Source: an uncultured virus (IMG/VR IMGVR_UViG_3300035670_000116)
Taxonomy: Duplodnaviria > Heunggongvirae > Uroviricota > Caudoviricetes
DNA length: 64,000 bases
IMG/VR virus record: IMGVR_UViG_3300035670_000116
Reading direction: 5' to 3' (one strand)
The position numbers and the translations under genes were made by a program. Shown in pieces: positions 8,154 to 40,598 of this stretch (position 1 is its first letter; the number at the start of each line of letters is the position of its first letter). The notes under the pieces were generated by a model. It ran no database searches, was not told where the DNA came from, and worked only from the letters and a program-made list of their open reading frames with translations.

Positions 8154-8180
8154 GGTCAGTTTAGCGTCGTGACCAGGACG
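8154..8180 (-). promoter_or_regulatory. repeated leader pseudoknot, copy 1
   Basis: CGTC-CTGGTCAC-GACG-CTAAA-CTGACC. Confidence 0.7.
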
Positions 8181-9572: not shown

Positions 9573-9596
9573 GAGTTGAATTGGGTTGAGTTGAGA

Positions 9597-12363: not shown

Positions 12364-12390
12364 AGGCAGTTTAACGTCATACCTGGGACG
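12364..12390 (-). promoter_or_regulatory. repeated leader pseudoknot, copy 3 (upstream of ssb)
   Basis: CGTC-CCAGGTAT-GACG-TTAAA-CTGCCT. Confidence 0.7.
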
Positions 12391-14492: not shown

Positions 14493-15308
14493 TTACTGAT
14501 TTGATTTGCCGTATCCCACAAATCCACCTTCCTTCTTACGTTGAGAAATGGCCTTGCTTGCATCAGAGCCAGCACGCTGGGAGCCATGCACCAGAAGTGC
14601 AAACGGCTTGTCACCCAAACAGTGACTGTCATCATGATCAATCTCAAGGCCCATCTCAGCGGCCTGATCCTCTGTGTACACAACGTGTGCCACACGCTGA
14701 AACACATCGGGATGCTTGGGGATCAAGTAATCGAGTGTTCCACCAAAGGATGCAGTGAGATAGAAGTTAGGTGGAATGCAATCCTTGAGTGCAAGCCACA
14801 TGCCCAGTGATTTGGTGTAGGCATAGAACTTCTGCTCGGGTCTGGTTTGTGCAACCATGAACCAAGCCTTCATGTAGTTCTCAGTCCAAAAGTCACCTGA
14901 CTCATGGACACGAATGAGTTTCTTAGGTGGCTGCATCAACAGGGATAGATCGATCAGATCCCTGACCAGCACGGCCTGGTTCCCATTGGAGTAAATGGTT
15001 TCACGCAACAGATCCCAGTTGTACCAACGGGCGTCCCTTACGTTGGGCCTGACTTCTGCCATGGCAGCAAAGCACCTGAAGTCATGCTCTGTTGTGACGC
15101 CTGTGTACTGAGGCAGATCAGTAATGGCACCAGTGGTGCGATCTGCAAATGTTTTGCACACACCAGCATGAGGACATGAGTATCCAGCTGGCAGTGAGAA
15201 GATCAAACGATTCTTGAGCTTACCGTTACCGGTAGAAAACTTAAGGACTTTCATGAGCTGAATTGAATTGAATTGATAAGCGTAGCTTATGGGTAAGTTT
15301 AGGGACAT
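14493..15308 (-). CDS. GP88-family protein (start probably 15254)
   Basis: FSLPAGYSCP..C...CFA, IRVHESGDF, FYAYTK. Confidence 0.75.
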   Translation of the reverse strand: MSLNLPISYAYQFNSIQLMKVLKFSTGNGKLKNRLIFSLPAGYSCPHAGVCKTFADRTTGAITDLPQYTGVTTEHDFRCFAAMAEVRPNVRDARWYNWDLLRETIYSNGNQAVLVRDLIDLSLLMQPPKKLIRVHESGDFWTENYMKAWFMVAQTRPEQKFYAYTKSLGMWLALKDCIPPNFYLTASFGGTLDYLIPKHPDVFQRVAHVVYTEDQAAEMGLEIDHDDSHCLGDKPFALLVHGSQRAGSDASKAISQRKKEGGFVGYGKSNQ

Positions 15309-16852: not shown

Positions 16853-17160
16853 TCCCCCGGTACCAATACGTTCTTCATCATGGTAGTTAGATCACGCTCG
16901 TGGCAGATACGCATTTGTGCGTGTTCAGTTGGAGTTTGCAAATGATCCCATAGGATACGTAACATCTTTTGTTTGGAACCACGGGTTGTAATCTTTTCGC
17001 TAAAGCCAACCACAGTTCCATAACGTTGGCTGCGGTACTGAGCAATACGCTCCCTTACCTCAGCACGTACCGTCATCAAGCCATGGGTCTTGGGACGTTC
17101 AGCAACACGATCACCAATGTTGTAGGTCTGTTTGGTTTTCATTGTTCGTACCAGTTGCAA
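16849..17160 (-). CDS. hypothetical protein, SH3-like
   Basis: YNIGDRVAE...RYGTVV...ILWD. Confidence 0.55.
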   Translation of the reverse strand: MQLVRTMKTKQTYNIGDRVAERPKTHGLMTVRAEVRERIAQYRSQRYGTVVGFSEKITTRGSKQKMLRILWDHLQTPTEHAQMRICHERDLTTMMKNVLVPGE

Positions 17161-17498
17161 TCGGATGAATCAGGAGTGTCATATTCAGGGAAGTCATAAG
17201 AGCAACAAGTGCCCTTGATGTTGTGTTTGCAATCATCACACAACGACTTGGCCTGAGGTTCTGTAATTGAAACTGTTTCTGCGTTTAACAATTTGTAAAA
17301 CTGTGAAACAAGAAACAGATTGCGCTTTGCTTCTTCAAAGAAATCAGCAGTGACTTCATGAGTTGTAAAGCGTGATCCGCAGTGATCGCATTGTTTACGA
17401 CGACGCGTAGAAAAATGTGATTGCCTGCTTTCGATAACACGCAAGCCAGGTTGCTTGCAGTTAGGACATTCAGGAAGAAGAGTCTTCTGAAACGCCAT
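17139..17498 (-). CDS. NrdR-like zinc ribbon protein lacking the ATP cone
   Basis: CPNC...RVIESR...RRRKQCDHCGSRFTTHE; extra C-terminal Cys cluster. Confidence 0.75.
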   Translation of the reverse strand: MAFQKTLLPECPNCKQPGLRVIESRQSHFSTRRRKQCDHCGSRFTTHEVTADFFEEAKRNLFLVSQFYKLLNAETVSITEPQAKSLCDDCKHNIKGTCCSYDFPEYDTPDSSDCNWYEQ

Positions 17499-18348: not shown

Positions 18349-18424
18349 TGGTACCCGAGGTGAGATTCGAACTCACGCTGGAGCGATTTTAAGTCGCTTG
18401 CCTCTTCCGCTGGGCTACTCGGGC
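18349..18424 (-). tRNA. trnL: tRNA-Leu(TAA) with short variable loop, CCA encoded
   Basis: GCCCGAG/CTCGGGT-ACCA, anticodon arm AGCGA-CTTAAAA-TCGCT, T-arm GTGAG-TTCGAAT-CTCAC. Confidence 0.9.
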
Positions 18425-18688: not shown

Positions 18689-20395
18689 TCAGGACTTTAG
18701 CGCAGAATCCCGTTGTTGCAACGCAATACGGAATGCTTGCGTGTACTCATCTTTGGTCTGATCCGAGAGCGCTGAGTTAGACAAGCCACGGATTTGTTCG
18801 ACGGACATCATTCCATTTGACACCTTGAGCTGGATGGTGAACTGAGGTTTGCCATCAATCATGCACAGCACAATGAAGTGCTGTTTCTTGCGTACGCCTT
18901 CTGCGTAGCCTGAGGCAGAGCCAACGCAATTGCGTACGGCCTGACCCCAGAGAGCAAGCTGATGGGTGTCATAGGGTTGGAAGAATGTCCAAGTCTGCTG
19001 GTCCTGCTGTACCTTGATAGGTTCAGGAAACAGATCTTGAGGCAAACCCTCGTTGGGATTAGTGATCTTCCAGGATTCTGCTTGAACATAATCGTGGAAG
19101 TCAGCAATGCGCCAACGCTTGGGAGGCTCAAGAGTTTCCTTGTTATCAAGGATGCGGCACAGCATAGATACGGTGTCATTCCAATCACTGAAGTGATGGA
19201 CATGGCAATTAAGATCAGAATTCCAGTTGTATCTGTTTTGAGATGCATCTTGGTTCTCATGAAACTTGGCAAGCATGCCAAAGAATGAACCAACAGGCAT
19301 ATGTTCACGCAGCCATGCAGCTGCTTTATCAGAACTGAAGTTCCTGAACCTGGTAGCCAGAAGCTCAAACATGTGTTTTTGGTAATAGTCCACAGGGCAA
19401 TCAGGCCAGATGCGTTGAACATGTAGGATGTTTTCGGCCAGCATCATGATGCGTCTGACACCACATTTAACTTCGCGTTGATACTTACATTCAGGATTGT
19501 TGTAAGCATTGATGGATGCTTGCAGTTCTACTTGCATCCATTTACGGAAGTGTGGAGTGTCAAGGATTGGCTTAGTTTTGTACAGATATCTCAGCTCATG
19601 AGTCCAGTTGATATAACTGAGGTTATCGTTTGCAGCTTTAGCAACAGCAAACAGATTATCGATTGTTAGTTCCCAGCCAGATTGCTGATTTTCTGGAATG
19701 TATTTGTGAGGTATCTCGACTGCTTTCCAGATTTCATCACATTGCATACGTGCAAAGATCTCACGAGAATCTTCCCAGGTGGGAATGGTTTCCTGCAGTG
19801 CTGCACGAAATTCTTCTACAGCTGGAGCAATGTCACGAGCTTTGTCGTAATAAGAAGCAAGATGGTTGGCACGCCATTTTTGACGTGTATATCCATCCTG
19901 TACATCCTCTTTAGTTACCAGCTTGGTGTACACATAAAATGTGCTGCGTCCTACTTGGACCGGCGTCGATTGATCAAGCTTGTCAATAATCGAGCGATCA
20001 ATAACTTTACGCGCAGCAGCCGTATCCTTAAACGCAGCTGCAAAACCATACACGTAATCTTCACCTTTCGGCGGAAGCCATGCTGCATACCAGCATTGCT
20101 CATAGTGATAAAGGATGGCTTTTGTAACGAGGCGAGCCTGCGGAGTTGCAACATCCACAGGCGTAGTAAATTTCTGGAAACGGTACCGAGCTGTATTCCC
20201 ATTGATGTTATCGATTGCATCTTGCTGTAACGATTCTCGTACAACTGAATGAGGAATCAAATGGGGGATGTTACCCAGCGGGTACTTAGATTTCTTGGTG
20301 GGTTTGTTTTCACGTTGTTGGCGAGCCAGTGCTTTGAGCTGGGGGTCATACGCCAACAGTTCAGTTTGTAGGTTCGAGGGAAGTTGGAATTGCAT
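18689..20395 (-). CDS. PcfJ-like domain protein, 568 aa
   Basis: DFHDYV...LALWGQAVRNCVGS..Y...FTIQL...EQIRGLSN. Confidence 0.75.
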   Translation of the reverse strand: MQFQLPSNLQTELLAYDPQLKALARQQRENKPTKKSKYPLGNIPHLIPHSVVRESLQQDAIDNINGNTARYRFQKFTTPVDVATPQARLVTKAILYHYEQCWYAAWLPPKGEDYVYGFAAAFKDTAAARKVIDRSIIDKLDQSTPVQVGRSTFYVYTKLVTKEDVQDGYTRQKWRANHLASYYDKARDIAPAVEEFRAALQETIPTWEDSREIFARMQCDEIWKAVEIPHKYIPENQQSGWELTIDNLFAVAKAANDNLSYINWTHELRYLYKTKPILDTPHFRKWMQVELQASINAYNNPECKYQREVKCGVRRIMMLAENILHVQRIWPDCPVDYYQKHMFELLATRFRNFSSDKAAAWLREHMPVGSFFGMLAKFHENQDASQNRYNWNSDLNCHVHHFSDWNDTVSMLCRILDNKETLEPPKRWRIADFHDYVQAESWKITNPNEGLPQDLFPEPIKVQQDQQTWTFFQPYDTHQLALWGQAVRNCVGSASGYAEGVRKKQHFIVLCMIDGKPQFTIQLKVSNGMMSVEQIRGLSNSALSDQTKDEYTQAFRIALQQRDSALKS

Positions 20396-20425
20396 GGTGA
20401 GTTCGGAGTTGAGTTCGTAGTAAGT

Positions 20426-20452
20426 GAGCAGTTTAGTGTCATGCTCAGGACA
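20426..20452 (-). promoter_or_regulatory. repeated leader pseudoknot, copy 4
   Basis: TGTC-CTGAGCAT-GACA-CTAAA-CTGCTC. Confidence 0.7.
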
Positions 20453-20457
20453 GTTGG

Positions 20458-20691
20458 TTAGCGAATAGATTTCAACTGATCAAGAAGTTCTTCATCAGTT
20501 TCATCTTCATCCCACTCATCTGCAAGGATTGCAGAATGAGAATCATCGATTGCCTGATCAAACGCATATGCTTGAGCAGGTGATATAAACACTGGTAGAT
20601 GTTTAGCAAACCCAATGCAAAGATAAACTCTGCCCTTGGGTCCACGAACAACGATGTACCAACGTTTGAATTCAATTGAGAAACCAATCAT
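20458..20691 (-). CDS. hypothetical early protein
   Basis: Tiles with 4-nt overlap. Confidence 0.55.
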   Translation of the reverse strand: MIGFSIEFKRWYIVVRGPKGRVYLCIGFAKHLPVFISPAQAYAFDQAIDDSHSAILADEWDEDETDEELLDQLKSIR

Positions 20692-20948
20692 GGATCTAAA
20701 TCCCAGTCGGATGTGTCGACCAGTTGCCAGTCAAGGTCGAGTGAATCAAGATAGCTACAGAAGCCATCTTCATCAACAGGGACTTGTTCATCGTCAGCCA
20801 GTTGGAAACAAGCTGTACACAATGCTGGAGCCCATTCTTCAGGTTCGAAACGTGTCGCCCGATATAACAGGCGCATGTCTTCAACCACTGCTGTAACTGT
20901 GACATTGGTTCCATCAATTGAGGTGTCTTCAATAGCTAGTACGGACAT
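20688..20948 (-). CDS. acidic hypothetical early protein
   Basis: VTAVVEDM...ATRFEPEEWAPALC. Confidence 0.65.
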   Translation of the reverse strand: MSVLAIEDTSIDGTNVTVTAVVEDMRLLYRATRFEPEEWAPALCTACFQLADDEQVPVDEDGFCSYLDSLDLDWQLVDTSDWDLDP

Positions 20949-21148
20949 TAGAAATCCTCCACGTAGCTGTAATCAGGAGTAATTGAACACCGATACTTGA
21001 TCCAATGACGGGCAGTGGTGTATTCACCATAGAACCGATCATTGTCAAGTACGTTTGCAATAGCACGTTCTCTTGCGCAGTTAGCAAGATTAATACGATC
21101 AAAGATTGTGAGACAGTCAGAAGTTGCGGCCATTGAATTAAATTGCAA
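20948..21148 (-). CDS. hypothetical early protein (start may be 21133)
   Basis: Coupled to downstream gene; follows pseudoknot copy 5. Confidence 0.55.
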   Translation of the reverse strand: MQFNSMAATSDCLTIFDRINLANCARERAIANVLDNDRFYGEYTTARHWIKYRCSITPDYSYVEDF

Positions 21149-21156
21149 TGTGATGT

Positions 21157-21183
21157 GAGCAGTTTAACGTCATACTCAGGACG
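21157..21183 (-). promoter_or_regulatory. repeated leader pseudoknot, copy 5
   Basis: CGTC-CTGAGTAT-GACG-TTAAA-CTGCTC. Confidence 0.7.
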
Positions 21184-21188
21184 GATCT

Positions 21189-21389
21189 TCACAGAATCTT
21201 AATATTTCGCTTACTTAATCCTGTACCAGGAATTGATACAGATCCATGCACACCTGATTGGCGTGCGTTGAAAGTCAGTTGGAATGGTCCAAGCTGAAAC
21301 GATTTGGTGTAACTTTTGACGCCGTGTTCAGTGATGTTGAAACCGGCAATGGTTTTGTCGAAGTTAAACGATGATTTCTTCTGAGTCAT
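21189..21389 (-). CDS. DUF4236-like small basic protein
   Basis: KSFQLGPFQLTFN...SVSIPGTGLS. Confidence 0.65.
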   Translation of the reverse strand: MTQKKSSFNFDKTIAGFNITEHGVKSYTKSFQLGPFQLTFNARQSGVHGSVSIPGTGLSKRNIKIL

Positions 21390-21655
21390 GATTCTTCAAG
21401 AGCATCACGAATAAATTGAAGTTGAGATTTACTCATTAACCTGGCAAAATCATTGCGAGCTTCTATAAAAGATAAAAGCTCTAATGCACGTTCTTTGGTT
21501 GATTTAGGTCTTCGATATTCTTTAAGCCTGCGAACTAAACCTTCACGTTGAAACTTTGTTCCACAAGATTTATCTCGAAGAATAAAATTACAACATTCAG
21601 TTAGTTCTTCAAGTCGAATATCGTCAATGAGTTTGTCAATGCTTGATTGAGTCAT
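21386..21655 (-). CDS. hypothetical protein, AT-rich
   Basis: Intact ORF with AT-rich codons. Confidence 0.55.
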   Translation of the reverse strand: MTQSSIDKLIDDIRLEELTECCNFILRDKSCGTKFQREGLVRRLKEYRRPKSTKERALELLSFIEARNDFARLMSKSQLQFIRDALEES

Positions 21656-21722
21656 CAGTCAAGGATCTTGAGTGTGATTAAAGTAAAACAAATCATTGCA
21701 ACAACAATGATTAATGCTTCAG

Positions 21723-21974
21723 TCATTTGAGTTCATCCGGTAGTAAAGCTTGGGTATCTTCTTCGTTCATGTTGGTCATGACGAAGGCTTCTCCATCAGG
21801 TGAAATAAATCCACCTACGAAACCCATACCGTACTTATCTGCAGACTCACGCATCTTGGCAGTGAGCTGCATGAAGGCAAGCTTTTGGGAATCAACTGAG
21901 TTGGGAATGGATGGTTTGTTGGTTGACATGAGTTGAGATGAGGGAAGGTGAGTGGAGTCTACCAGGCATGTCAA
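21723..21974 (-). CDS. hypothetical early protein
   Basis: GMGFVGGFISPDGE. Confidence 0.6.
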   Translation of the reverse strand: MTCLVDSTHLPSSQLMSTNKPSIPNSVDSQKLAFMQLTAKMRESADKYGMGFVGGFISPDGEAFVMTNMNEEDTQALLPDELK

Positions 21975-22088
21975 GGCATGACTACTGGTAGATGAATGAG
22001 TACTCTTTATCTAATAATAGGTTTCCTCCTGGTACTCCCTTGCGGGGGTCTGGGGGGAAACCTGGGTCAGATACCAGCCAAGCTCGGA

Positions 22089-22373
22089 TCACCTGTGCAT
22101 CTCTTGATGTTGTTTCCATGCAGCAGTATGCATTTCATCAAGAGTGATAGGAGGTTCCTCAGGTTCATTAGGAGTAGGGTCATAATCGATACGCTCTTCA
22201 AGCATGGCGATTACTTCTTCAACAACACTGTCATCACCTGGAACCAGATGCTGACAAGTACATGAACGCTTGGCTTCTCTTTCAAGGACAGCCTTGAGTA
22301 GGTCCACAGCTTCTTGCAGTTTGTGGTATTCGTTTGATTTCCAGTCGATCTCTGGATACTTGGAGTAAGGCAT
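22089..22373 (-). CDS. hypothetical early protein
   Basis: IDYDPTP..EPPITLDEMH motif; TCAA-rich leader. Confidence 0.65.
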   Translation of the reverse strand: MPYSKYPEIDWKSNEYHKLQEAVDLLKAVLEREAKRSCTCQHLVPGDDSVVEEVIAMLEERIDYDPTPNEPEEPPITLDEMHTAAWKQHQEMHR

Positions 22374-22448
22374 AAGTTGAATTGGGGTTGAGTGATAAGC
22401 AGAGCCCTGTATTTATCAGGGAATCCGCTACGGATATATAAGCTGAGC

Positions 22449-22700
22449 TTATGTGTTGGTTGGTTCTTTGATGATCCAACCTGTGTAGTGATTGGTGCTT
22501 CGATCAACAGATACCAACTTGTACTGTTCAAGCTTTTCCAGTGCGTTGAGGTATTGCTCAAGCCTGGTAGCTTGCATGTTAATTCTTGGCACGAAACATG
22601 GATTGTGGCCATGCTTCCTGCGGTGTGCCAAGTAATAGTTGTACAAGTTACGTTGGTTGATCGTTAGCGCTGGCATTTGATTCTGCAACTGCGTTGACAT
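22449..22700 (-). CDS. hypothetical protein, possible winged helix
   Basis: LTINQRNLY...YLNALEKLEQYKLV. Confidence 0.55.
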   Translation of the reverse strand: MSTQLQNQMPALTINQRNLYNYYLAHRRKHGHNPCFVPRINMQATRLEQYLNALEKLEQYKLVSVDRSTNHYTGWIIKEPTNT

Positions 22701-23036
22701 TTACATCAAGCCGAGAATCCTAAGCCAGCTGTCGGGATGGTCTGGTTCAACTTCGTCTTCACCTGGCGTGAAGCAGATGCTGTCGAACGACCACTCCTCG
22801 ATTTCCTCGTTGGTTGGGATGTCGTACCAGCCTTCGAGTTCCTTGTCTTCGCAGACGGGCTTCCAGTAGCAGCGCAGGACACCACGCTTGTTTCTGTAGA
22901 CAGAACCTGTGGTTGGGGCTCCAGATTTCTCTGGGTCCCAGTTGATATCTGCTTGGAACTGCTCCTGGCCTTCTTCTTCGGAGAAGGGGATGTAGCCAAA
23001 GGTGCCTGCGATTTCTTCTGTGATGGGGTGAAGCAT
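22701..23036 (-). CDS. hypothetical early protein
   Basis: EVEPDHPDSWLRILGLM terminus. Confidence 0.65.
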   Translation of the reverse strand: MLHPITEEIAGTFGYIPFSEEEGQEQFQADINWDPEKSGAPTTGSVYRNKRGVLRCYWKPVCEDKELEGWYDIPTNEEIEEWSFDSICFTPGEDEVEPDHPDSWLRILGLM

Positions 23037-23300
23037 GAGATGAACTCCGTGATGAGGATTGAAATGATTGCGAGGATAACAATGATGATGTCTGGTTCTT
23101 GATTAGCTTTCGTCATCGTATTCCTCAGCATTGATTACTTGGAATCCAATGAACGCACCATCACGTTCGATGAGCGTCCATTCGGATTGATTTGATTCAC
23201 GCATGGCTTGCTCTTGTTCATAGGCCATGTCAGCCATGGCATCTAGCAAGTCAGCGTTGTAGTTGTTGTCCATGGTTTGAATTGAATTGATAAAAGGAAT

Positions 23301-23327
23301 GAGCAGTTTAACGTCATACTCAGGACG
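23301..23327 (-). promoter_or_regulatory. repeated leader pseudoknot, copy 6
   Basis: Identical to copy 5. Confidence 0.7.
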
Positions 23328-23366
23328 TGGGTGATACCACCCCAGATTTGAGTAGTGCCAGATAGA

Positions 23367-23792
23367 TTACTTCACATCCTTCCAAGCAAGCCCACGGGCA
23401 ATGTTGGAGATAGTGCATCCACTGACACCAAACTTACGTCCGATGACGTTGTAGAAATTCGTAACCGAACCACAGGACCTGCGCATGTCACCATCAGAAA
23501 GAATCATGCGAATCTCTTTGACAGATTGCGCATTCAACTTGGATGGGCCATCCCAAGTCCTGAAGTTACGCTTGGGCTTTCTCTTGATCGCTTCCAGTGA
23601 ATAACCTGGTCCTTTAACAGCCATTAGCTGTGGTGCTGGCTGTTGGTCCGGGGCTGGGGGGACAGCCTTGATAGGAAAGCCAAGTGTCACTGAAGTACCG
23701 TCTTTGAGAACGGAGATGGTGACACGGCTATCCCTGGTAATCACTGAGATGTGATCTGGGTTCTTGATGTCGAGTTGACTGAGGGCTTCCAT
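23367..23792 (-). CDS. HTH DNA-binding protein
   Basis: SKLNAQSVKEIR...IGRKFGVSGCTISNIARGLAWK, like the HTH tail of phage HNH proteins. Confidence 0.7.
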   Translation of the reverse strand: MEALSQLDIKNPDHISVITRDSRVTISVLKDGTSVTLGFPIKAVPPAPDQQPAPQLMAVKGPGYSLEAIKRKPKRNFRTWDGPSKLNAQSVKEIRMILSDGDMRRSCGSVTNFYNVIGRKFGVSGCTISNIARGLAWKDVK

Positions 23793-23888
23793 GAGGTGAG
23801 TTGGTAAGCAAATAGAGGGTAGCTAGTCCCTGCAGAAGTGCAAGTACTAGCTGTGGTGTGCGTACTGCCTGTGCCACTGCAGCTGGTG

Positions 23889-24236
23889 CTACCGAAGGTA
23901 AAGGTAGGAACCAGCCCAGTCAGCATTCTTGATGCAAGTCTCAAATGAGACATCGTCAAGAAGGTTGTAACGCGCATGTTTAGCCGGAGCCTTCCAGCTT
24001 GCAGGCTTGAAGACAGCACCTGATTGCTTGCTGATGAATGCGTGGACAGAGGTACCGGAATCACGCTGAACAATCTTGTAATACTTGGTACCAGGCAAGA
24101 TGTCGAACGTGATATCCCGTGGACTTGCGTACTGGTAATCTTTGGTGTACGCAGCGTAGTTGTCCACCAGTGCATTGATCAGCCTGTCGATGCGAGCAAG
24201 GAGGATCTCCTGGTGCTCGCGAAGGTTAGTTGTCAT
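23889..24236 (-). CDS. conserved phage early protein
   Basis: KYYKI..SVHAFI..GAVFKPASWKAPAKHARYNL...WAGSYLY. Confidence 0.75.
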   Translation of the reverse strand: MTTNLREHQEILLARIDRLINALVDNYAAYTKDYQYASPRDITFDILPGTKYYKIVQRDSGTSVHAFISKQSGAVFKPASWKAPAKHARYNLLDDVSFETCIKNADWAGSYLYLR

Positions 24237-24421
24237 TTGGTCTGTTGGATTGTGTTGGGTTGGATGTTGGTGATGTCGACGCCCATCGCTGCACCAACGG
24301 TGATTGCACCCATGCCAATGCACAGGATTGCAACCAAGAAGTTAGCTACGGGCGTCTCACCTGTCTCATATGAGTCCAGATGTATGTACTTGTTGATGCC
24401 AAGTTTCACGATCTGTTTCAT
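24233..24421 (-). CDS. small membrane protein
   Basis: TM FLVAILCIGMGAITVGAAMGV. Confidence 0.55.
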   Translation of the reverse strand: MKQIVKLGINKYIHLDSYETGETPVANFLVAILCIGMGAITVGAAMGVDITNIQPNTIQQTK

Positions 24422-24448
24422 GGTTGAGCTGAGGGTAAATGGAATAAA

Positions 24449-24555
24449 AAAATACGAACACGTCCGGATCAATATGTTAAATAAACAATTAAAATACGAA
24501 CACGTCCGTTAAAGATACGAACGTGTCCGTAAATGTCCGTACGTTGTCCGTACGT
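24449..24555. repeat. iteron-like direct repeats in AT-rich intergenic DNA
   Basis: AAAATACGAACACGTCCG x2, ATACGAACGTGTCCG, TGTCCGTACGT x2. Confidence 0.7.
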
Positions 24556-24983
24556 CAGAAGGGAATCTCCTCCAGGGTAGGCTGAGCAGCGCCTGTGGTC
24601 TCAGTCTTGGGTGCAGGCTTACGACCAAACTCGTAATCCTTCACGATCAACTGGACCTCAGGACGCTTGAGCACCTGGAGATTACCGTCGTCATCCATGT
24701 ACGTGGTACGGATGCCGTTGAGTCGGCCATAGACCCGCAACTCTTGACCGACAACGAAATTGCCGTTGGAGTATGCGGTGTTGAGGCCGTTGTTGTTGGT
24801 GAAAGTGAGCGTGATGCTGAGCATGGAGTTCACGTTGTGAATCATCTTCACACCGATGAACTGGCTGTTGTCCTCTTCGTTGGTGAATTGCTTGATGAAA
24901 GCAATCCGACCTTGGAACTGGACTTGAGCCGAGTCAGCATACTGCTTAAGATCAGCAGTGTCAGCAACAGGTGTAGTAGCCAT
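24555..24983 (-). CDS. second, divergent SSB-like OB-fold protein
   Basis: QVQFQGRI...VGQELRVYGRL; tail EEIPF. Confidence 0.6.
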   Translation of the reverse strand: MATTPVADTADLKQYADSAQVQFQGRIAFIKQFTNEEDNSQFIGVKMIHNVNSMLSITLTFTNNNGLNTAYSNGNFVVGQELRVYGRLNGIRTTYMDDDGNLQVLKRPEVQLIVKDYEFGRKPAPKTETTGAAQPTLEEIPF

Positions 24984-24987
24984 GAGA

Positions 24988-25072
24988 TTGAGTTGAATTG
25001 AATTAAAGTACAGGATGTAGAGTCCTGCAGTAAACCCACTCACCCTATGGATGAGAAGGGTTAAATGCAGAA
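24988..25072 (-). repeat. leader module copy A: long hairpin plus 49-nt repeat
   Basis: 24988-25036 matches 25330-25378 with one mismatch; hairpin 25023-25072. Confidence 0.75.
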
Positions 25073-25073
25073 A

Positions 25074-25316
25074 TCAATCCATCATGTGTTCTTGTTCCCA
25101 TTTGAGAAGAGCACGGTTGAGATCAACCTTCTTCTCGAGAACAACACAGAATGGAATTAAATCCTGGAACTGAACCATCCCGTCTTGCCATTGGTAAAAG
25201 ATTTCAAGCGCTCGTTGCCTTGCGCTTTCGATCTCTTGATCAATAACAGGTGCATCTCGACGAGCGAGAAGCCGGGCGTCTTGGATCAGAAGACGTTCAA
25301 CACTTGCAGGAGACAT
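25074..25316 (-). CDS. hypothetical early protein
   Basis: Start reassigned downstream of leader module B. Confidence 0.6.
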   Translation of the reverse strand: MSPASVERLLIQDARLLARRDAPVIDQEIESARQRALEIFYQWQDGMVQFQDLIPFCVVLEKKVDLNRALLKWEQEHMMD

Positions 25317-25329
25317 AGTCCTAGTTGGG

Positions 25330-25439
25330 TTGAGTTGAATTGAATTGAAGTACAGGATGTAGAGTCCTGCAGTAAACCTACCGTCGATACGAATTCGTAT
25401 CAATACGAATCCATACCAACGGAAAGGTTAAGTGCAGAA
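25330..25439 (-). repeat. leader module copy B: long hairpin plus 49-nt repeat
   Basis: Hairpin 25365-25439 with about 20 contiguous pairs including G-U. Confidence 0.75.
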
Positions 25440-25444
25440 GTCAA

Positions 25445-25648
25445 CTACCTTAGCTCTGCAGTTTTGATGCAATAGTACTGATCACCAAGGAACCCTTGGA
25501 CGTAGATCAGATTGTGGTGTGGCCTGTCATTGCATGTCCGCTGGTAATGAGTGTTCAGCATCTTCTGCCCGAATACGGACAGCAGCATGCCGATACCAGT
25601 GCCCATAACAATGGCCACAACTGAATGAGCAAAGTAACGGTCAGTCAT
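25445..25648 (-). CDS. small membrane-anchored protein
   Basis: TM then C...FLGDQYYCI. Confidence 0.6.
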   Translation of the reverse strand: MTDRYFAHSVVAIVMGTGIGMLLSVFGQKMLNTHYQRTCNDRPHHNLIYVQGFLGDQYYCIKTAELR

Positions 25649-25877
25649 GGTAATCAGGAAGTTCAATGTGATCGCAGCTGTAGCAGTATGAATAGAACTC
25701 TCTCATCTCTGAGTACAGTTCTTTCACACCACTGGGGATACCGTGGCCGAGAGTACGTGTCTCGATGTCGATCCACTTCTCTGTGATGCCACGGTGCTGG
25801 AAGTGAAGCTGATCTGATGTGCCGCCGTACCACACAATGCGGGTACGGTCGTCGCACTCTGGTTGATAGGTCAGCAT
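25641..25877 (-). CDS. hypothetical early protein
   Basis: Tiles in early operon. Confidence 0.55.
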   Translation of the reverse strand: MLTYQPECDDRTRIVWYGGTSDQLHFQHRGITEKWIDIETRTLGHGIPSGVKELYSEMREFYSYCYSCDHIELPDYHD

Positions 25878-25887
25878 TCTTGGGACC

Positions 25888-26043
25888 TCACTGTTGTACA
25901 GGATGAATGGTAGGCATGATTGCGTTGGCCAGCTTGATGCGACCAACAGTGATCATGGCCTTGATGTTCTCCTTGCTCTTGTCATTCTCCAACGCCTTGG
26001 CGGCGTTGATGAATTGATTTGCAATTGACTTACGGATTGACAT
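25888..26043 (-). CDS. first ORF of the leftward early array
   Basis: MSIRKSIANQF...IKLANAIMP. Confidence 0.55.
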   Translation of the reverse strand: MSIRKSIANQFINAAKALENDKSKENIKAMITVGRIKLANAIMPTIHPVQQ

Positions 26044-26455
26044 GATGAAGTTCGTGTGAAGGTTGACAAGCGAGATGAATCTCACTCAATTAAATCCACT
26101 GTTTGGCTCTTGACAGATTCCAAGCTAATGCTTTGATACGCATTACTTGGTCACTGTTCTATACCGCAGCTCCTCGGCGCGGGGGCGAAACCTAATTTCA
26201 GGCGCGATAAGAGTTCGTATCACGGCTAAATTTAGGGTAGAAATGTGTGGATTCAGTAACATTTCAGTCAAACAAAAATGAATGGCCCCGCCCTTCTTTT
26301 TTTTCTACCCATATCGCAAGTCGCGTGGCGGGTGGGAGAACAGTCAGGTAATTTTGTACCCTATTAGGCCTGTATAGGAGGCCCCCTTTGCACAAAAATA
26401 GGTTTTGTTGCGCAATTTTGTAATTATTTTCCCTAATTAGCCCAAAAATTTGCAC

Positions 26456-26483
26456 AAAAAAGCCGGGGCATTAAGCTCCGGCG
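26456..26483 (-). terminator. rho-independent terminator
   Basis: GCCGGAGC-TTAAT-GCCCCGGC then TTTTTT. Confidence 0.65.
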
Positions 26484-26506
26484 TTTGCGTTGGATCAGGT
26501 TAAGGC

Positions 26507-26731
26507 TTATTCCTGGGTCGATGCACCCTTTTTACGCTTATAAGCCAACGTTGCACGCGCTGCTTTGGTAAATGCTTCCTCATCTGGAAGCTCATATGCC
26601 AAATTTATCTTTGCTTCGCCAATAAAACTGCGTACGTCACCAGAATCGGCACCGCTTGCAGCCATTTCCATGGCCTTATTTTTGATCGCCTCTAACGCTT
26701 CGACCCGTTTTTGGCGTGTGCCAGCGTCCAT
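26507..26731 (-). CDS. hypothetical helical protein
   Basis: Intact ORF followed by a terminator. Confidence 0.65.
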   Translation of the reverse strand: MDAGTRQKRVEALEAIKNKAMEMAASGADSGDVRSFIGEAKINLAYELPDEEAFTKAARATLAYKRKKGASTQE

Positions 26732-26830
26732 ATGGAGCTAAAACCTGATCAATTACAAATATACAGCCAGTATTCCTTAAGTTACAAGCAATAGAATGTG
26801 AAGAGGTAAAAATACGGGCAATAAACGTAA

Positions 26831-28849
26831 ATGGCGATCTCTCAAGCCGACTTTTACGCCTTTAGTCAGGCCACTGGTGCTCCAGTGCCCGATGATCCGG
26901 AAGCACGAGCCAGAATTGCGCCTCAAGTGATGGAATGGCGGCGTAATCAGCTCAAGCAACCGAAGGAAGAGGGTGGGATCGTCGACACGTTGGGTAAAAT
27001 TGCGCTCGGTGCTGGTGCATTGGCGGCAGGTATCGCAGGATACCGTGCATTGCGTGGCAGACAGGCCGTAAGCCCGGTGAACGTGGCGGTGCAGGAGGAA
27101 GTGGTCAGACGTGCAGCCCAACCCGTGCCGCAGCTCAGAGGTGTCACCCAGCAGCTCGGGGCAGAAACCGCGCGGCCGCCCATTCCCCGGCCTCCCACCC
27201 AACCTCAACCTTCAGCAGCACCTCCTCTTGGTAAACGTAATTTGACCGGTGGGGGAGTATTTGGTTACTTACCGGCTGCAGAAGAGGAATTTACTGCTTA
27301 TCGCCCGGATCCTAGGGAGATGGTGACTCGGCAGGTGGCAGATGCCCGCCGTCAAGCAGCAACTGAGCAACTCTTGCAAGCAGCTGAGGCTCGCCGTGGT
27401 TCTTACCAACCGGAATTACCGGGTGTCAAAGGAACCTTGATGGCATTGCGTTCTCCTGCCGGAGTTGCGGCAGAAGAAGCAGGCGAATTGGTTGCACGGG
27501 CGGAATCTCGCCCATTAGCTGCAGCACCGGCGCAAATGAATTTGTTTGCGTACGTGAAACAAGCGGCAGAACCAGAAGGTGACGTTGTCGACCGGTTGCT
27601 TACCGAATACAACCAACTTGTTGAACGCCAAGCGCGGACTGATCAACGCGTACGTTCTTCCGTTCGTGAATATCAAATGCAGTTGCAAGGAAAAGCACTT
27701 CGCATCATGGATGAGTTGCGCGGTGACTCCTTAACGGAACAACATCAAGTTAAACGTGCGTTTAACGTTGATCAAGCCATCAATGCTCTGGATTCTGGCG
27801 AAGATCAAGCCACTGGTCGCGTTCGGCAGCAACTTCAACGCAACGAAGACGTAAACCTAGGCGCAATCGACAGCCTGGAGGACAGCACCAACAATATTGA
27901 CGTTGTCGCATCCATGACACCGGATGGTGTTCCGGTTGATCAGGCTGAGTCTGCTGGTCGCATTGGTCCTGTTACTGCTCAAGAGCAACTTGAGATGGCA
28001 AAGCAGGAAATGATGACCCGTCGTCAGCAATTAGAAGGAGCTGGCCTGCGTCCTGGTACGGTGCGGTTTGAACGGGCACTTGCAGAACCATTCCGTACTT
28101 CTGCAATGACTCGAGTCACCGGAACCGGCGGGATCGAGACTGCACTTCCCCAAGGCCCCATTCGTCAGACGGTCCAAGCCGTTAGTGCGTCGGAAGCACT
28201 GCCTGAACGTGCGTTAACCAACGTCGGCCCTGAAGCTCAGATTACTTCTACCGCAGCTGGCACCGCAATTCGTGGCGCATCCCCCAGCTATCAAGAAGTT
28301 CCGGCCAAAGAAGAACTCCGTCAACTTTTCGGTACAGCCGATCCCCTGGTCCCTGGCGCACCTGATGAGTTAGCCATTGATCTCCCTGGCCGTTCTCGTG
28401 TTCGCGGCATACTTCCCGACATTGAACCTGAGCAACGTTCGAAGCAGGAAATCGTTTACGGAATTCTGGACCGGCCCGCAACTCCTGAACCGGCAGGCGG
28501 TAGTCCTGGCATTGGAGCTTATGGGATTGAACGCAGCTATGTCCCTGGCGCCATGAGCAAAGCAACTGGTCAGTACAGCGAAGCTGCTACTCGCCAGCCA
28601 TCTTATGTGCCTGCTTGGCTTCAGAAGAGAGAAACGCCACAGACCGGGTTTGGTTCCTTGAGTACCGAACAACTTCTTTCGGGTGCCGAGAAAACTCCTT
28701 CGCCTAGAATTCGTGAAGCCTTTGAAGGCGAGATCGCACGTCGCGAAACTGCCAAGCAAAGCCTAGATGTTTCAGAAGCAATGCGTCGGGCTAGAATCGA
28801 AGGACGTGATCCTCAGTCGGTGCTGCGTACTTTAGGTTTTAACGTTTAA
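26831..28849 (+). CDS. 672-aa low-complexity protein, putative internal virion protein
   Basis: A/Q/E/R/P-rich; hydrophobic LGAGALAAGIAG near N-terminus; TAGAAT upstream. Confidence 0.7.
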   Translation: MAISQADFYAFSQATGAPVPDDPEARARIAPQVMEWRRNQLKQPKEEGGIVDTLGKIALGAGALAAGIAGYRALRGRQAVSPVNVAVQEEVVRRAAQPVPQLRGVTQQLGAETARPPIPRPPTQPQPSAAPPLGKRNLTGGGVFGYLPAAEEEFTAYRPDPREMVTRQVADARRQAATEQLLQAAEARRGSYQPELPGVKGTLMALRSPAGVAAEEAGELVARAESRPLAAAPAQMNLFAYVKQAAEPEGDVVDRLLTEYNQLVERQARTDQRVRSSVREYQMQLQGKALRIMDELRGDSLTEQHQVKRAFNVDQAINALDSGEDQATGRVRQQLQRNEDVNLGAIDSLEDSTNNIDVVASMTPDGVPVDQAESAGRIGPVTAQEQLEMAKQEMMTRRQQLEGAGLRPGTVRFERALAEPFRTSAMTRVTGTGGIETALPQGPIRQTVQAVSASEALPERALTNVGPEAQITSTAAGTAIRGASPSYQEVPAKEELRQLFGTADPLVPGAPDELAIDLPGRSRVRGILPDIEPEQRSKQEIVYGILDRPATPEPAGGSPGIGAYGIERSYVPGAMSKATGQYSEAATRQPSYVPAWLQKRETPQTGFGSLSTEQLLSGAEKTPSPRIREAFEGEIARRETAKQSLDVSEAMRRARIEGRDPQSVLRTLGFNV

Positions 28850-28851
28850 TC

Positions 28852-29073
28852 ATGGCTGAAGAAAAGAAGAAAAAAGAAAAGAAGTGGATTCAAGGCATGG
28901 ATATGAAGGAAGGTGCCTTCACTGCCAAAGCCAAGAAGAAAGGTATTACCACTGCTCAGCTTCAGGAGAACGTTCTTTCTAATCCTGATAAGTACGACGA
29001 GAAGACTGTAAAGCAGGCTCGGCTTCGTCAGACGTTGGTAGGATTACACAAGAAGAAAAAATCTAAAGGCTAA
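28852..29073 (+). CDS. small Lys-rich protein
   Basis: KWIQ...KEGAFTAKAKK...KQARL motif. Confidence 0.7.
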   Translation: MAEEKKKKEKKWIQGMDMKEGAFTAKAKKKGITTAQLQENVLSNPDKYDEKTVKQARLRQTLVGLHKKKKSKG

Positions 29074-29702
29074 TGGCCAAAGATCATAGGCTTGACCTTG
29101 GGCGGTACGTTACGAACCCGTTTAACAATCAAGGTAAGCTTCGTTCCAATTTAGATTTTGACGAACTGTTCCGTTCGAAGCCGGACACAGGCGAATATCC
29201 CTGGAACCCATCACGCTTCAAAGAGACGGACCTCTTGAAGCGGATGATGACGCGAAAGCGTACATTAAACCCAGATCTGAACTTTGTTTCGAACTCTCCG
29301 TTTTTTGGAACAAATACAGATGACGCCGTAAGTTATGAACTGTTTGAAGGCCTGGGACGATTCAACCGTCCTATGGAGTATGACTTCAATGAAGGTCGTC
29401 CTATAACAGATCAACGCCCGCAGGATCAACCTGACTTTAATCCGGTGTGGGTTGAAGCTTATCGTTTGAGCCCAACGATGCGTCCGGATAAAGCTGCCAA
29501 GAACCCGATGCCTCGCATGAAGAACCCTGATCCCAATGGGTATCTGATGTCGGTGGCGGAGCAAAGGGTAGAAGATGAAGTTGAGAACAAGATGTCTATC
29601 GCTCAGTTGCTGGACAAGAGCGGGGTGATGAAACCGGTCGAGGTGAAGAAGGAAGAAAAAGAAGGAGAAATCATTGAACAGGAAGTTATCAAAAATACGT
29701 AA
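29073..29702 (+). CDS. hypothetical late protein
   Basis: TAATG coupling. Confidence 0.7.
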   Translation: MAKDHRLDLGRYVTNPFNNQGKLRSNLDFDELFRSKPDTGEYPWNPSRFKETDLLKRMMTRKRTLNPDLNFVSNSPFFGTNTDDAVSYELFEGLGRFNRPMEYDFNEGRPITDQRPQDQPDFNPVWVEAYRLSPTMRPDKAAKNPMPRMKNPDPNGYLMSVAEQRVEDEVENKMSIAQLLDKSGVMKPVEVKKEEKEGEIIEQEVIKNT

Positions 29703-29732
29703 ATCTATAATGATTAAAAGGCTGTAAATAAA

Positions 29733-30353
29733 ATGAGGTTTGCGGGGCAAGCACTGCAGCGAATACTTGGCTCCCGCATGGGTCAGGCCATGATGGGGCC
29801 TGCTACAAAAGAAGCAGTTAAAGCGTCGATTCCTGGGTCTGTAATTACAACTGGACTTACGGCACTCTCTGGCGGAGGCCTTGGGCCATCACTTGCAACC
29901 GGTGCGTTAGATATTGGTTTGTCAACTGTTGGCGCCCGCCTTGCAGGCAAAGTGACACCTGAGATGCTCTCCAGGCTTACGGGCAAACGCGCTGCCAATG
30001 TTCTTGCTGGTGCAAAACCAGGTGAGATGTCGACTCTCCAGAACATTGCCATGGGTGCTGGCAGTATTGGTTCCACAATGCTCACCGCACCCTTGGTGGC
30101 TGGTTCTCAAATTTCCAGCTTGTCGCAAGATCAGCTCCAGCAGATTTTGGCTGAACCTGTGGTTATGGATCAAACCTTGACGGCTGAGCAGCAACTACTG
30201 CAACGGGACATGATCAACCGTTTGCAAGGCGAGGCTTTATCTCCTGGCACCATGTTCCAGATGCAAGGCATTGAGTCCACGCTTGGCCGGGGCATGAGTG
30301 TTGCTCCTCAACTTGATCCTTATGGAATCATGCGCGGAGGTGCCCTGCGATGA
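29733..30353 (+). CDS. glycine-zipper protein, putative ejection protein
   Basis: G/A/L-rich hydrophobic helices. Confidence 0.65.
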   Translation: MRFAGQALQRILGSRMGQAMMGPATKEAVKASIPGSVITTGLTALSGGGLGPSLATGALDIGLSTVGARLAGKVTPEMLSRLTGKRAANVLAGAKPGEMSTLQNIAMGAGSIGSTMLTAPLVAGSQISSLSQDQLQQILAEPVVMDQTLTAEQQLLQRDMINRLQGEALSPGTMFQMQGIESTLGRGMSVAPQLDPYGIMRGGALR

Positions 30354-40304: not shown

Positions 40305-40598
40305 GTGGGTCCCGAATACATCGCTCTAGCTCTTACAGCTATTGCTTCCGCAGTGAGCGGTGGCACTTGGGTCGCAAACAAAATTTTAAGCAGGCAAAGC
40401 CAAGACATCCAGCAGGCTTTTAATTACACCAATTCACAAAAAAGAAGGATTGACATTTTGGAAGACCAAATCAATCGGATGCCTTTGGACTACGTGTTGA
40501 AGGTGGACTTCTTAAGAGAGATCCAAGAAATGCACGACAACTTTCGCGAAATTAATAATAAGCTTGATAAGCTTATGGAAAAGCTTTTGACAAAATGA
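40305..40598 (+). CDS. TM-anchored coiled-coil protein, possibly lysis-related
   Basis: N-terminal TM; PLDYVLKVDF...INNKLDKL. Confidence 0.6.
   Translation: MGPEYIALALTAIASAVSGGTWVANKILSRQSQDIQQAFNYTNSQKRRIDILEDQINRMPLDYVLKVDFLREIQEMHDNFREINNKLDKLMEKLLTK

What the first reader, a model, noticed from the sequence alone, without database searches (positions are those of the whole stretch)
24988..25439. Duplicated leader module: RNase III-like hairpin with built-in refolding switch
Both copies share the base TTCTGCA..TTAACC/GGTTTA.TGCAGGA but have unrelated upper stems. Copy B has about 20 contiguous pairs with several G-U, valid only on the minus strand. The 3' arm TGCAGGA can alternatively pair with the conserved downstream TCCTGTA. 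Cleavage of the long stem would therefore let the new 5' end refold into a protective hairpin just before the TCAA leader. It resembles T7 early RNase III sites plus an added switch, and the 49-nt repeats could also drive cassette exchange.
Basis: partly seen in the sequence, partly recalled or inferred. Interest (0 to 1): 0.7.

Follow-up and report, generated by a model that had tools for sequence, protein, structure and literature searches.

The report
Two-state hairpins bracketing a phage gene
Two copies of a conserved RNA signal that can fold in two alternative ways sit on either side of one small early gene of a lake cyanobacterial virus, and related viruses show that this gene comes and goes exactly at these repeats; what the RNA fold does has not been measured.

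Summary
The window is a cyanophage related to Synechococcus phage S-EIVl. On the minus (gene-sense) strand, two elements (25443-25348 and 25076-25006) share a three-arm design. A lower stem is built on or next to the upstream stop codon (arm a: arm a'). Above it sit an internal loop, a short mid stem and an unrelated upper stem. Downstream lies arm a'', which can pair with a' instead of a, followed by a G-poor leader without a Shine-Dalgarno site and the next ATG.

In 56 distinct relatives both pairings hold in 55, with 12 a' variants and compensatory changes. G-U pairs outnumber A-C mismatches 62 to 17, so the sense strand is the selected one.

The element occurs 2-5 times per genome, always in one early-gene cluster and always in sense.

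The cassette-exchange idea is supported. The closest relatives by the downstream gene lack the 80-aa gene and one repeat unit (342 bp), with the junction inside the repeat. Three other phage pairs show the same pattern.

RNase III cleavage is untested: no RNA data were available and no phage RNase III was found. I could not separate nuclease-triggered from ribosome-triggered hand-over.

This scan noted the same family earlier on three other genomes. I found no description in print.

The parts
25445..25648 (-). Upstream small gene 'I' (67 aa, hydrophobic N-terminus); its TAG stop is at 25447-25445
   Evidence: ORF lists. Homologues precede the element in L008, L011, L012, L015, L017, L021, L022, L027 and L029.
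25348..25443 (-). Copy B. Base triplet TGA 25443-25441; arm a 25439-25433; internal loop CUU; mid stem 25429-25425 with 25379-25375; 19-bp upper stem 25422-25404 with 25399-25381, holding the palindrome GATACGAATTCGTATC; arm a' 25371-25365; loop 25364-25358; arm a'' 25357-25351
   Evidence: Sequence; fold z -8.61; covariance model 63.4 bits, E 2e-16.
25317..25350 (-). Leader of gene A, with TCAA-type repeats. The only G residues are in CUAGGACU just before the ATG
   Evidence: The family's leaders hold 5.8% G against 23.6% on this strand of the window.
25074..25316 (-). Gene A (80 aa, no family match): the single-gene cassette bracketed by the two copies
   Evidence: 25 relatives found. No Pfam or PHROG hit. 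Absent from L027-L032 within 1.5 kb of gene F.
25006..25076 (-). Copy A. Gene A's TGA stop 25076-25074 forms the helix base; arm a 25072-25066; mid stem 25062-25058 with 25037-25033; upper stem 25055-25049 with 25045-25039; arm a' 25029-25023; loop 25022-25016; arm a'' 25015-25009
   Evidence: Sequence; fold z -5.15; covariance model 66.0 bits.
24984..25008 (-). Leader of gene F, with no G at all and no Shine-Dalgarno motif
24555..24983 (-). Gene F (142 aa, all-beta prediction of low confidence, function unknown). It is itself a mobile cassette in relatives
   Evidence: Structure model pLDDT 44. No PDB relative.
24988..25039 (.). Direct repeat, first copy. With 25330-25381 it forms the 52-nt, 96% identical pair that bounds the 342-bp unit missing in L027
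25330..25381 (.). Direct repeat, second copy

Best explanation
The two copies belong to a conserved family of transcribed, sense-strand elements of S-EIVl-like cyanophages. These elements fill the gap between a few consecutive small early genes.

Shown:
- (1) The RNA has two mutually exclusive folds that are both under selection. One is a long hairpin whose base includes or abuts the upstream stop codon (a:a'). The other is a short hairpin (a':a'') that forms once arm a is removed or occupied.
- (2) At the DNA level the repeats are the crossover points at which single-gene cassettes are gained or lost. In this window the cassette is gene A.

Inferred:
- The long hairpin is an intercistronic processing or decay barrier in a polycistronic early message, and it protects the 3' end of the upstream cistron.
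- When its 5' arm is cut away or digested (by a host RNase III-type cut in the internal loop, or by RNase E/J decay arriving from upstream), a' is handed to a''. The downstream cistron then begins with a 5'-terminal hairpin in front of its unstructured, Shine-Dalgarno-less leader.
- Each cassette therefore carries its own end protection, which would let genes be shuffled without losing expression.
For: Structure:
- Folding z-scores are -5.2 and -8.6 on the sense strand only.
- In 22 hand-picked seed elements the long fold has 96.1% of cells paired, with 7 of 15 pairs changed on both sides. The short fold has 97.4% paired, with 4 of 7 pairs changed on both sides. 0 of 500 shuffles reach the covariation score in either case, and slid controls give 29-57% paired.
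- In 56 distinct model hits, a:a' is at least 6/7 paired in 55 and a':a'' in 55. There are 12 a' variants. Permuting partners never reaches the observed value (0 of 2000). G-U cells number 62 and A-C cells 17.

Independent test:
- 85 matches picked only by the a'-loop-a'' pattern in IMG/VR lie inside a full element in 83 cases.
- 55 chance matches of the same pattern in prokaryote genomes give 2 weak model hits.

Placement:
- All 83 model hits are on the gene-sense strand.
- Five complete relatives have 3-5 copies each, all within 1-2.5 kb.
- The first triplet is the stop codon of a frame of at least 40 codons in 48 of 60 elements. In the other 12 the stop lies between 15 nt upstream and 2 nt inside the element start.

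Switch:
- Masking 12 nt, or truncating at a', gives the short hairpin in 59 of 60.
- The short state is a median 2.9 kcal/mol less stable.

Recombination:
- Window 25882..25325 and 25044..24500 both align to L027, overlapping at L027 1441-1501. The window therefore holds one extra repeat unit plus gene A.
- L010 versus L009 (genes D and C), L020 versus L019 and L004 versus L003 (gene F) show indels bounded by elements.

Background:
- A single RNase III cut that leaves a folded 3' end stabilises mRNA (passage in PMC6993053).
Against: - No RNA ends, cleavage or half-life data exist for any of these phages.
- No RNase III is encoded in the window or in 5 complete relatives.
- The elements punctuate only 2-5 gene junctions. 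Most other early gaps in the window carry other motifs or nothing, so this is not a general processing system for the early transcript.
- The near-universal anchoring on the stop codon is not required by a nuclease model and fits a ribosome trigger better.
- In 6 of 60 elements the short state is predicted to be at least as stable as the long one. In those the proposed double-stranded substrate would rarely form.
- The sequences are related to one another, and the seeds were picked for pairing, so the counts overstate the number of independent events.
- Co-transcription of the flanking genes is assumed, not shown.
Confidence: 0.42

Rival explanations
1. Translation-coupled switch. A ribosome terminating at the stop codon in the helix base covers the 11-nt 5' strand (stop, one nucleotide, arm a). 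This melts the lower stem and lets a' pair with a''. Upstream translation would thereby reset the structure in front of the next leader and tune downstream initiation or re-initiation.
For: - The stop codon is inside the helix base in 48 of 60 elements and within 15 nt of it in the rest.
- The stop triplet pairs with its partner, and TAA goes with TTA.
- The lower strand length (3+1+7 nt) is about what a terminating ribosome covers. That footprint figure is recalled, not tested here.
- Masking 12 nt gives the short hairpin in 59 of 60.
- The two states differ by only a median 2.9 kcal/mol.
- Leaders lack Shine-Dalgarno motifs in 48 of 55.
Against: - Neither state occludes the start codon or leader in most elements, so the effect on initiation is unclear.
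- In at least 4 elements the stop is 9-15 nt upstream, too far for a ribosome to melt arm a.
- In copy B of this window the real stop is 4 nt upstream of the retained TGA triplet.
- There are no expression data.
Confidence: 0.22
2. Primarily a DNA-level recombination module, a selfish or adaptive cassette boundary. The conserved arms exist to provide homology, or single-strand DNA hairpins, for cassette exchange. The RNA fold would be incidental or serve only as insulation.
For: - Indels are bounded by the repeats in 4 comparisons.
- Gene order around the elements is highly variable.
- The two window copies are 50 of 52 identical although orthologous elements in the nearest relatives differ. 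This is as expected after a recent crossover or a circle insertion.
- A 10-nt tandem duplication sits at the 5' edge of one element (L023).
Against: - Homology alone does not need three mutually compensating arms.
- a and a'' differ at 88 positions in total, and in 47 of them both still pair with a', often through G-U.
- G-U cells exceed A-C cells 62 to 17, and orientation is strictly sense in 83 of 83 hits. Both point to the transcript.
- No recombinase or integrase domain was found among 98 ORFs.
Confidence: 0.15
3. Transcription attenuator. The short hairpin a':a'' is a terminator and the long hairpin an anti-terminator, as in three-segment attenuators.
For: - A stand-alone 10-bp version of the same hairpin, followed by CUUUUCCUUUUCC, exists in two contigs (L084 and L092).
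- The consensus scan flags copy A's short hairpin as terminator-like.
Against: - Only 4 of 60 elements have at least 5 T in 8 nt after a''.
- Copy B is not flagged.
- The short hairpin alone is weak (median -9 kcal/mol).
Confidence: 0.07
4. Binding site for a phage regulator of translation or stability. The regulator would recognise the conserved lower stem and internal loop, or the palindromic tip.
For: - Primary sequence is conserved beyond what pairing needs (for example GGGUUUYCUGCAG).
- The palindrome GATACGAATTCGTATC recurs in 12 of 109 distinct elements. It also recurs in 7 places outside the elements, including a conserved hairpin in the upstream regulatory gap.
- All 7 ATACGAAY matches in the window lie within 24452-26220.
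Against: - Upper stems are otherwise unrelated, and most elements lack the palindrome.
- No candidate RNA-binding protein was identified.
- This reading can coexist with the other explanations.
Confidence: 0.08

Closest known systems
RNase III processing signals between the early genes of phage T7 (R0.3, R0.5, R1.1 and others)
   Same: - Irregular hairpins of about two helical turns with an internal loop.
- Placed between cistrons of early genes, in sense orientation.
- A single cut leaving a 3' hairpin is known to stabilise the upstream mRNA (passage in PMC6993053; the architecture of the T7 sites is recalled).
   Different: - No cleavage is shown here, there is no sequence relationship, and Rfam gives no match.
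- The stop codon is built into the helix.
- A third arm provides a conserved alternative fold.
- Only 2-5 copies occur, in one cluster.
- The host is a cyanobacterium whose RNase III specificity is unknown to me.
PeSLs (promoter-early stem-loops) of T4-type phages (Arbiol 2010, PMC2839356; Comeau 2014, PMC4122927)
   Same: - Repeated motifs that run from the upstream stop codon to the downstream start.
- They contain a stem-loop with G-T pairs, flank small genes of unknown function, and mark indel and replacement junctions between related phages.
- A circle-mediated exchange was proposed for them (abstracts; section 13).
   Different: - PeSLs are defined by a strong sigma-70 promoter, and they end in a Shine-Dalgarno site. 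Neither is present here.
- PeSL stem-loops act as terminators, whereas here only 4 of 60 have a U-rich tail.
- No two-state fold is described for PeSLs in the parts I read.
Three-segment alternative-pairing leaders (trp-type attenuators), recalled
   Same: A middle segment can pair with either an upstream or a downstream partner, and a ribosome's position on the upstream segment can decide which.
   Different: - Here the upstream 'leader peptide' is a full gene.
- There are no regulatory codons and no terminator tail.
- The element is intercistronic and repeated.
Intercistronic REP/BIME hairpins that stabilise upstream mRNA in enterobacteria, recalled
   Same: Repeated palindromic units just after stop codons, in operons, able to block 3' exonucleases.
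   Different: - REPs are dispersed in hundreds of copies and in both orientations.
- They lack a conserved alternative partner and a fixed leader.
- They are chromosomal, not phage-borne.
Integron attC sites, recalled
   Same: Imperfect inverted repeats with conserved lower arms and a variable central part, following each mobile single-gene cassette; they are strand-specific.
   Different: - No integrase was found.
- The internal-loop sides are not complementary R boxes.
- The element is tied to the stop and start codons of a transcribed operon.

Membership tests
T7-type RNase III processing signal | Cleaved by RNase III in vivo or in vitro | not testable with these tools
   No RNA run was listed. 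No phage RNase III was found. The host enzyme family rings in a Synechococcus elongatus control genome.
T7-type RNase III processing signal | Irregular hairpin of about 20 bp with an internal loop, lying between cistrons in sense orientation | tested here: met
   Copy A has 22 bp and copy B 34 bp, each with a 3x3 internal loop. 83 of 83 hits are in sense orientation. The elements sit between ORFs.
T7-type RNase III processing signal | Flanking genes lie on one polycistronic transcript | not tested
   This is assumed from same-strand, tightly packed genes. No promoter-like site was found inside the elements.
PeSL (T4-type phages) | Sigma-70 consensus promoter (-35 and -10) within the motif | tested here: not met
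   None of the 5 promoter-like sites in 22000-27500 lies in either copy. By eye I saw no conserved TAnnnT in relatives.
PeSL (T4-type phages) | Stable stem-loop, with the motif spanning from the stop codon to the start codon | tested here: met
PeSL (T4-type phages) | Located at insertion, deletion or replacement junctions between related phages | tested here: met
   Four comparisons.
PeSL (T4-type phages) | Shine-Dalgarno sequence at the 3' end of the motif | tested here: not met
   A GGA-type motif lies within -4 to -16 in 7 of 55 leaders; leader G content is 5.8%.
Intrinsic terminator | G+C-rich hairpin followed by a U tract | tested here: not met
   4 of 60 elements have at least 5 T in 8 nt after a''. 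Only copy A was flagged by the scan.
Integron attC / cassette array | Integron integrase nearby, and complementary R''/R' core sites | tested here: not met
   No integrase or recombinase domain among 98 ORFs. The CUU/UAC internal-loop sides do not pair.
Any Rfam family | Match to a curated covariance model | tested here: not met
   0 matches at E up to 1 in 20000-30000, both strands.
Stop-codon readthrough or SECIS-like signal | Open downstream frame continuous with the upstream ORF | tested here: not met
   16 of 48 are in frame with the next ATG, which is the chance rate. Only 7 are also free of stops.

The most novel reading that the evidence does not exclude
A recombinase-free, integron-like cassette system in lytic cyanophages. 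One transcribed element would do two jobs. As DNA it is the homology patch through which single genes are inserted or excised, possibly via small circles. As RNA it is a bistable switch operated by the terminating ribosome. The ribosome melts the stop-codon-anchored stem, a' is handed to a'', and the ribosome or its small subunit is delivered across the folded upper hairpin to the Shine-Dalgarno-less leader. This would be a bacterial counterpart of the plant pararetrovirus ribosome shunt, and it would make every cassette self-sufficient for expression wherever it lands.
Probability: 0.1. Interest if true: 0.85.

Novelty: new variant of a known kind. Interest (0 to 1): 0.62.

Why it matters
Phage early regions are full of small, fast-shuffling genes of unknown function, and how such genes stay expressible after being moved is an open question.

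Here a widespread freshwater cyanophage lineage carries a compact element with two measurable properties. It has two alternative RNA folds, both kept by compensatory change, and it sits precisely at cassette gain and loss junctions. One a' variant alone gives 85 matches in 72 IMG/VR stretches.

This offers a concrete, testable model linking mRNA end protection or translational coupling to modular genome evolution. It differs from the promoter-based PeSL solution of T4-type phages. The element could also serve as a portable insulator part for polycistronic expression in cyanobacteria.

Tried and rejected
- RNA evidence: no RNA holder was listed for window 24400-26000, so ends and expression could not be examined.
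- Whole genome: none is held for this window.
- Rfam: no match.
- Promoter inside the element: rejected.
- General intrinsic terminator: rejected, although a stand-alone terminator-like version exists elsewhere.
- Readthrough or SECIS-like fusion of gene A to gene F: copy A is in frame and open, but across the family 16 of 48 are in frame, the chance rate. Rejected.
- Phage-encoded RNase III: none among 98 window ORFs or in 5 complete relatives.
- Host-derived element: 55 matches of the core pattern in prokaryote genomes are scattered over unrelated taxa. Only 2 give weak model hits, at 23.8 and 17.1 bits.
- Function of gene F: no Pfam or PHROG hit, no PDB relative by profile, and a structure model with pLDDT 44 that I did not use. 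My early impression of an OB-fold or SSB is unsupported. A true SSB lies at 11540-12343.
- A generic three-arm scan of the window returned over a thousand chance hits and was useless. A first automatic arm parser mis-set many rows and was replaced by the covariance model.
- Literature: the S-EIV1 genome paper (ISME J 2015; PMC4542036) is not held, so I could not check whether it mentions these repeats. Searches for S-EIV1 with cyanophage and for cyanophage, intergenic, stem-loop, RNase III and early genes listed no paper whose title or abstract start describes the element.

Full report
**What the window is.** The region aligns only to Synechococcus phage S-EIVl (KJ410740; 70% identity over 22% of a 3-kb query). 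The window encodes a phage DNA polymerase, terminase and virion proteins. Genes to the left of about 26.8 kb run on the minus strand, away from a divergent gap. The finding lies 1.4-1.8 kb into this leftward run of small genes, which I take to be early genes from their position. No whole genome is held for the window.

**The observation.** On the minus strand, copy B (25443-25348) and copy A (25076-25006) share four features:
- a 7-bp lower stem UUCUGCA/UGCAGGA;
- a 3x3 internal loop;
- a 5-bp AACCY/RGGUU stem;
- a 2x1 loop.

Above these they carry unrelated upper stems: 7 bp in copy A, and 19 contiguous bp with four G-U pairs in copy B. Both fold far better than shuffled sequence on the minus strand (z -5.15 and -8.61) and poorly on the plus strand (z -1.84 and -2.73).

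Downstream of each copy, UGCAGGA-CUCUACA-UCCUGUA can form a 7-bp hairpin. A G-poor leader of TCAA-type repeats then runs to the ATG of gene A (25316) or gene F (24983). The shared 3' part is a 52-nt direct repeat, 96% identical and spaced 342 nt. Its 31-nt core occurs twice, against 0 expected. A covariance model run without filters over all 64 kb finds only these two copies (66 and 63 bits; next best 12.6).

Gene A's TGA stop is the base of copy A's helix. Copy B keeps a TGA triplet at that position, but the real stop (TAG) lies 4 nt upstream.

**Relatives.** A search with gene A found 25 IMG/VR loci. The same three-arm element lies in front of gene A in 23 of 26 assessable loci. It lies directly behind gene A in 24 of 27, plus one cut by a contig end.

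S-EIVl has the element behind gene A, with GGA/UCC changed to GAG/CUC in the short hairpin.

On 22 elements that I picked because they parsed cleanly (a bias towards pairing):
- The long fold has 96.1% of cells paired, and 7 of 15 pairs changed on both sides.
- The short fold has 97.4% of cells paired, and 4 of 7 pairs changed on both sides.
- No shuffle of 500 reaches the covariation score for either fold.
- Slid controls give 29-57% paired.

A model built on the long fold only found 83 hits in 150 kb, all in gene-sense orientation. Among 56 distinct full-length hits:
- a:a' is at least 6/7 paired in 55;
- a':a'', which is not part of the model's structure, is at least 6/7 paired in 55;
- there are 12 different a' sequences;
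- permuting partners never reaches the observed count (0 of 2000);
- G-U cells outnumber A-C cells 62 to 17, so the sense strand is the selected one.

The stop triplet pairs with a UCA or UUA just after a'. All three TAA stops face TTA.

**An independent test.** The pattern of a'-loop-a'' alone, for one a' variant, has 85 matches in 72 IMG/VR stretches. Of these, 83 lie inside a full element. The two misses are one sequence in which the same hairpin is extended to 10 bp and followed by a U-rich tail, a terminator-like stand-alone form. The same pattern has 55 scattered matches in 596 Gb of prokaryote genomes. By my rough estimate that is about what chance gives, and only 2 of them yield weak model hits. 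The element therefore belongs to this phage lineage and not to hosts.

**Placement.**
- Five complete relatives of 79-86 kb carry 3-5 copies each. All are on one strand and within 1-2.5 kb.
- In 48 of 60 distinct elements the first triplet is the stop codon of a frame of at least 40 codons. In the other 12 the stop lies between 15 nt upstream and 2 nt inside the element start.
- The leader from a'' to the ATG is 16-37 nt in 55 of 60.
- Leaders hold 5.8% G, against 23.6% on this strand of the window. A GGA-type motif is present in only 7 of 55.
- The same leader motif also precedes other ATGs in the window that have no hairpin, so the leader and the hairpin are separable modules.

**Energetics.**
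- At equilibrium the long fold dominates in both window copies (P about 0.997-0.999).
- The short state is only 3.7 kcal/mol less stable in both copies. Across 60 elements the median is 2.9 kcal/mol, the interquartile range is 1.1-4.2, and in 6 elements the short state is at least as stable.
- Masking the first 12 nt, or truncating at a', gives the short hairpin in 59 of 60.
- The design therefore needs a trigger, and once arm a is gone or occupied, a' is captured at once.

**Cassette exchange.** Gene order around the elements varies widely.
- Five different gene families, or singletons, precede element + A.
- Families F, G or B follow A + element.
- F can be present, absent or elsewhere.

Pairwise alignments place the junctions inside the elements:
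- L010 has about 530 bp (two genes) that L009 lacks. L009 1444-1482 matches both flanking elements, and the flanks are 94% and 99.4% identical.
- L020 versus L019 differ by the gene F cassette in the same way.
- L004 versus L003 also differ by the gene F cassette in the same way.

For this window, the six closest relatives by gene F (75-87% amino-acid identity) have no gene A within 1.5 kb. L027 and L029 read I-element-F. Window 25882..25325 and 25044..24500 both align to L027 and overlap at L027 1441-1501. The window thus holds exactly one extra repeat unit: gene A plus one element. L027's single element has copy B's palindromic upper stem and copy A's connection to gene F.

The two window copies are 50 of 52 identical, whereas L027's counterpart differs in the loop. 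This suggests a recent crossover or a circle-type insertion. Which direction the event took (gain or loss) is not known.

**Mechanism.** Two things are shown: a two-state sense-strand structure under selection, and crossover at the repeats. The rest is inferred.

My preferred reading (0.42) is intercistronic processing and end protection. The long hairpin blocks or receives a nuclease and caps the upstream cistron. Loss of arm a hands a' to a'', which caps the downstream cistron in front of its unstructured leader. A single cut that leaves a 3' hairpin is known to stabilise mRNA (PMC6993053, passage).

Against it:
- there are no RNA data;
- no phage RNase III was found;
- the elements occupy only a few junctions;
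- stop-codon anchoring is unexplained by a nuclease model.

The main rival (0.22) is a ribosome trigger, in which termination inside the helix base melts the lower stem.

Readings I judge less likely are a purely DNA-level module (0.15), a regulator binding site (0.08) and an attenuator (0.07; only 4 of 60 have a U-rich tail). Readthrough was rejected.

**Comparison with known systems.** The element works like a T7 RNase III signal in position and shape, but membership cannot be tested here. At the DNA level it works like a PeSL (stop-to-start motif, stem-loop, indel junctions; PMC2839356 abstract and section 13, PMC4122927 abstract). It fails two PeSL features, the sigma-70 promoter and the Shine-Dalgarno site. 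Rfam has no match.

I found no description in print, but I could not read the S-EIV1 genome paper. Earlier notes of this scan describe the same family on three other genomes, with similar readings. I treat those as leads and not as evidence.

Noticed in passing
window 8157-8168, 12367-12378, 20429-20440, 21160-21171, 23304-23315 (all minus); L001 about 3320-3290 (minus): A promoter-like motif (consensus about GTCCTGAGYATGACRYTAAACTGCTCA) sits roughly 30-60 nt upstream of five minus-strand ATGs: 5 matches against 0.88 expected. In S-EIVl the same motif occupies the I-A junction where this window has copy B. It may be a phage middle promoter.
   Followed up: partly
window 24419-24557 (minus): The gap after gene F holds three or more copies of ACGGACACGTTCGTAT-type repeats. 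They form a long hairpin followed by a U-rich tail that the scan flags as terminator-like. All 7 ATACGAAY matches of the window (2.18 expected) lie within 24452-26220, three of them in copy B's upper stem.
   Followed up: partly
window 26041-26266 (minus); L027 about 50-150, L028 about 850-950, L029 about 300-400: A 226-nt gap near the start of the leftward genes folds strongly. It holds a conserved hairpin whose tip is a variant of the palindrome GATACGAATTCGTATC. The block TGAAATGTTA...CCTAAATTTAGCCGTGATACGAA...GCCTGAAATTAGG is conserved in relatives. It could be an operator or a structured RNA.
   Followed up: partly
window 18349-18424 (minus); 1896-1975 and 2139-2212 (plus): Three tRNA genes: Leu-UAA, which sits in a gap between minus-strand genes, plus Leu-AAG and Pro-UGG.
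   Followed up: no
window 9566-9587, 15253-15274, 23272-23288 (minus): The TCAA-type leader (AATTCAAYTCAA...) also sits directly in front of other ATGs that have no hairpin element: 10 matches with up to 3 mismatches against 0.37 expected, all on the minus strand. The ATG near 15255 may be the true start of the GP88-like gene.
   Followed up: no
L084 and L092, 149-178 (plus): A stand-alone version of the a'-loop-a'' hairpin, extended to 10 bp and followed by CUUUUCCUUUUCC. It has no upstream arm a and looks like an ordinary intrinsic terminator.
   Followed up: partly
L003 and L005 1813-1892; L002 2302-2382; L004 2307-2378; L006 2461-2532: Five elements have a long leader of 72-81 nt. It contains a second conserved module with two small hairpins (ACTAGTACA..TACTAGT and ATCAACCGNNAGGTTGAT).
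   Followed up: no
L023 2213-2233: A 10-nt tandem duplication (TGACTCCTGC twice) at the 5' edge of an element. The real stop codon is in the first copy. It may be a footprint of slippage or recombination.
   Followed up: no
window 40595-40777 (plus); 17142-17498 (minus): A MazE/AbrB-type small protein lies among the structural genes, and an NrdR-like zinc-ribbon protein among the replication genes.
   Followed up: no
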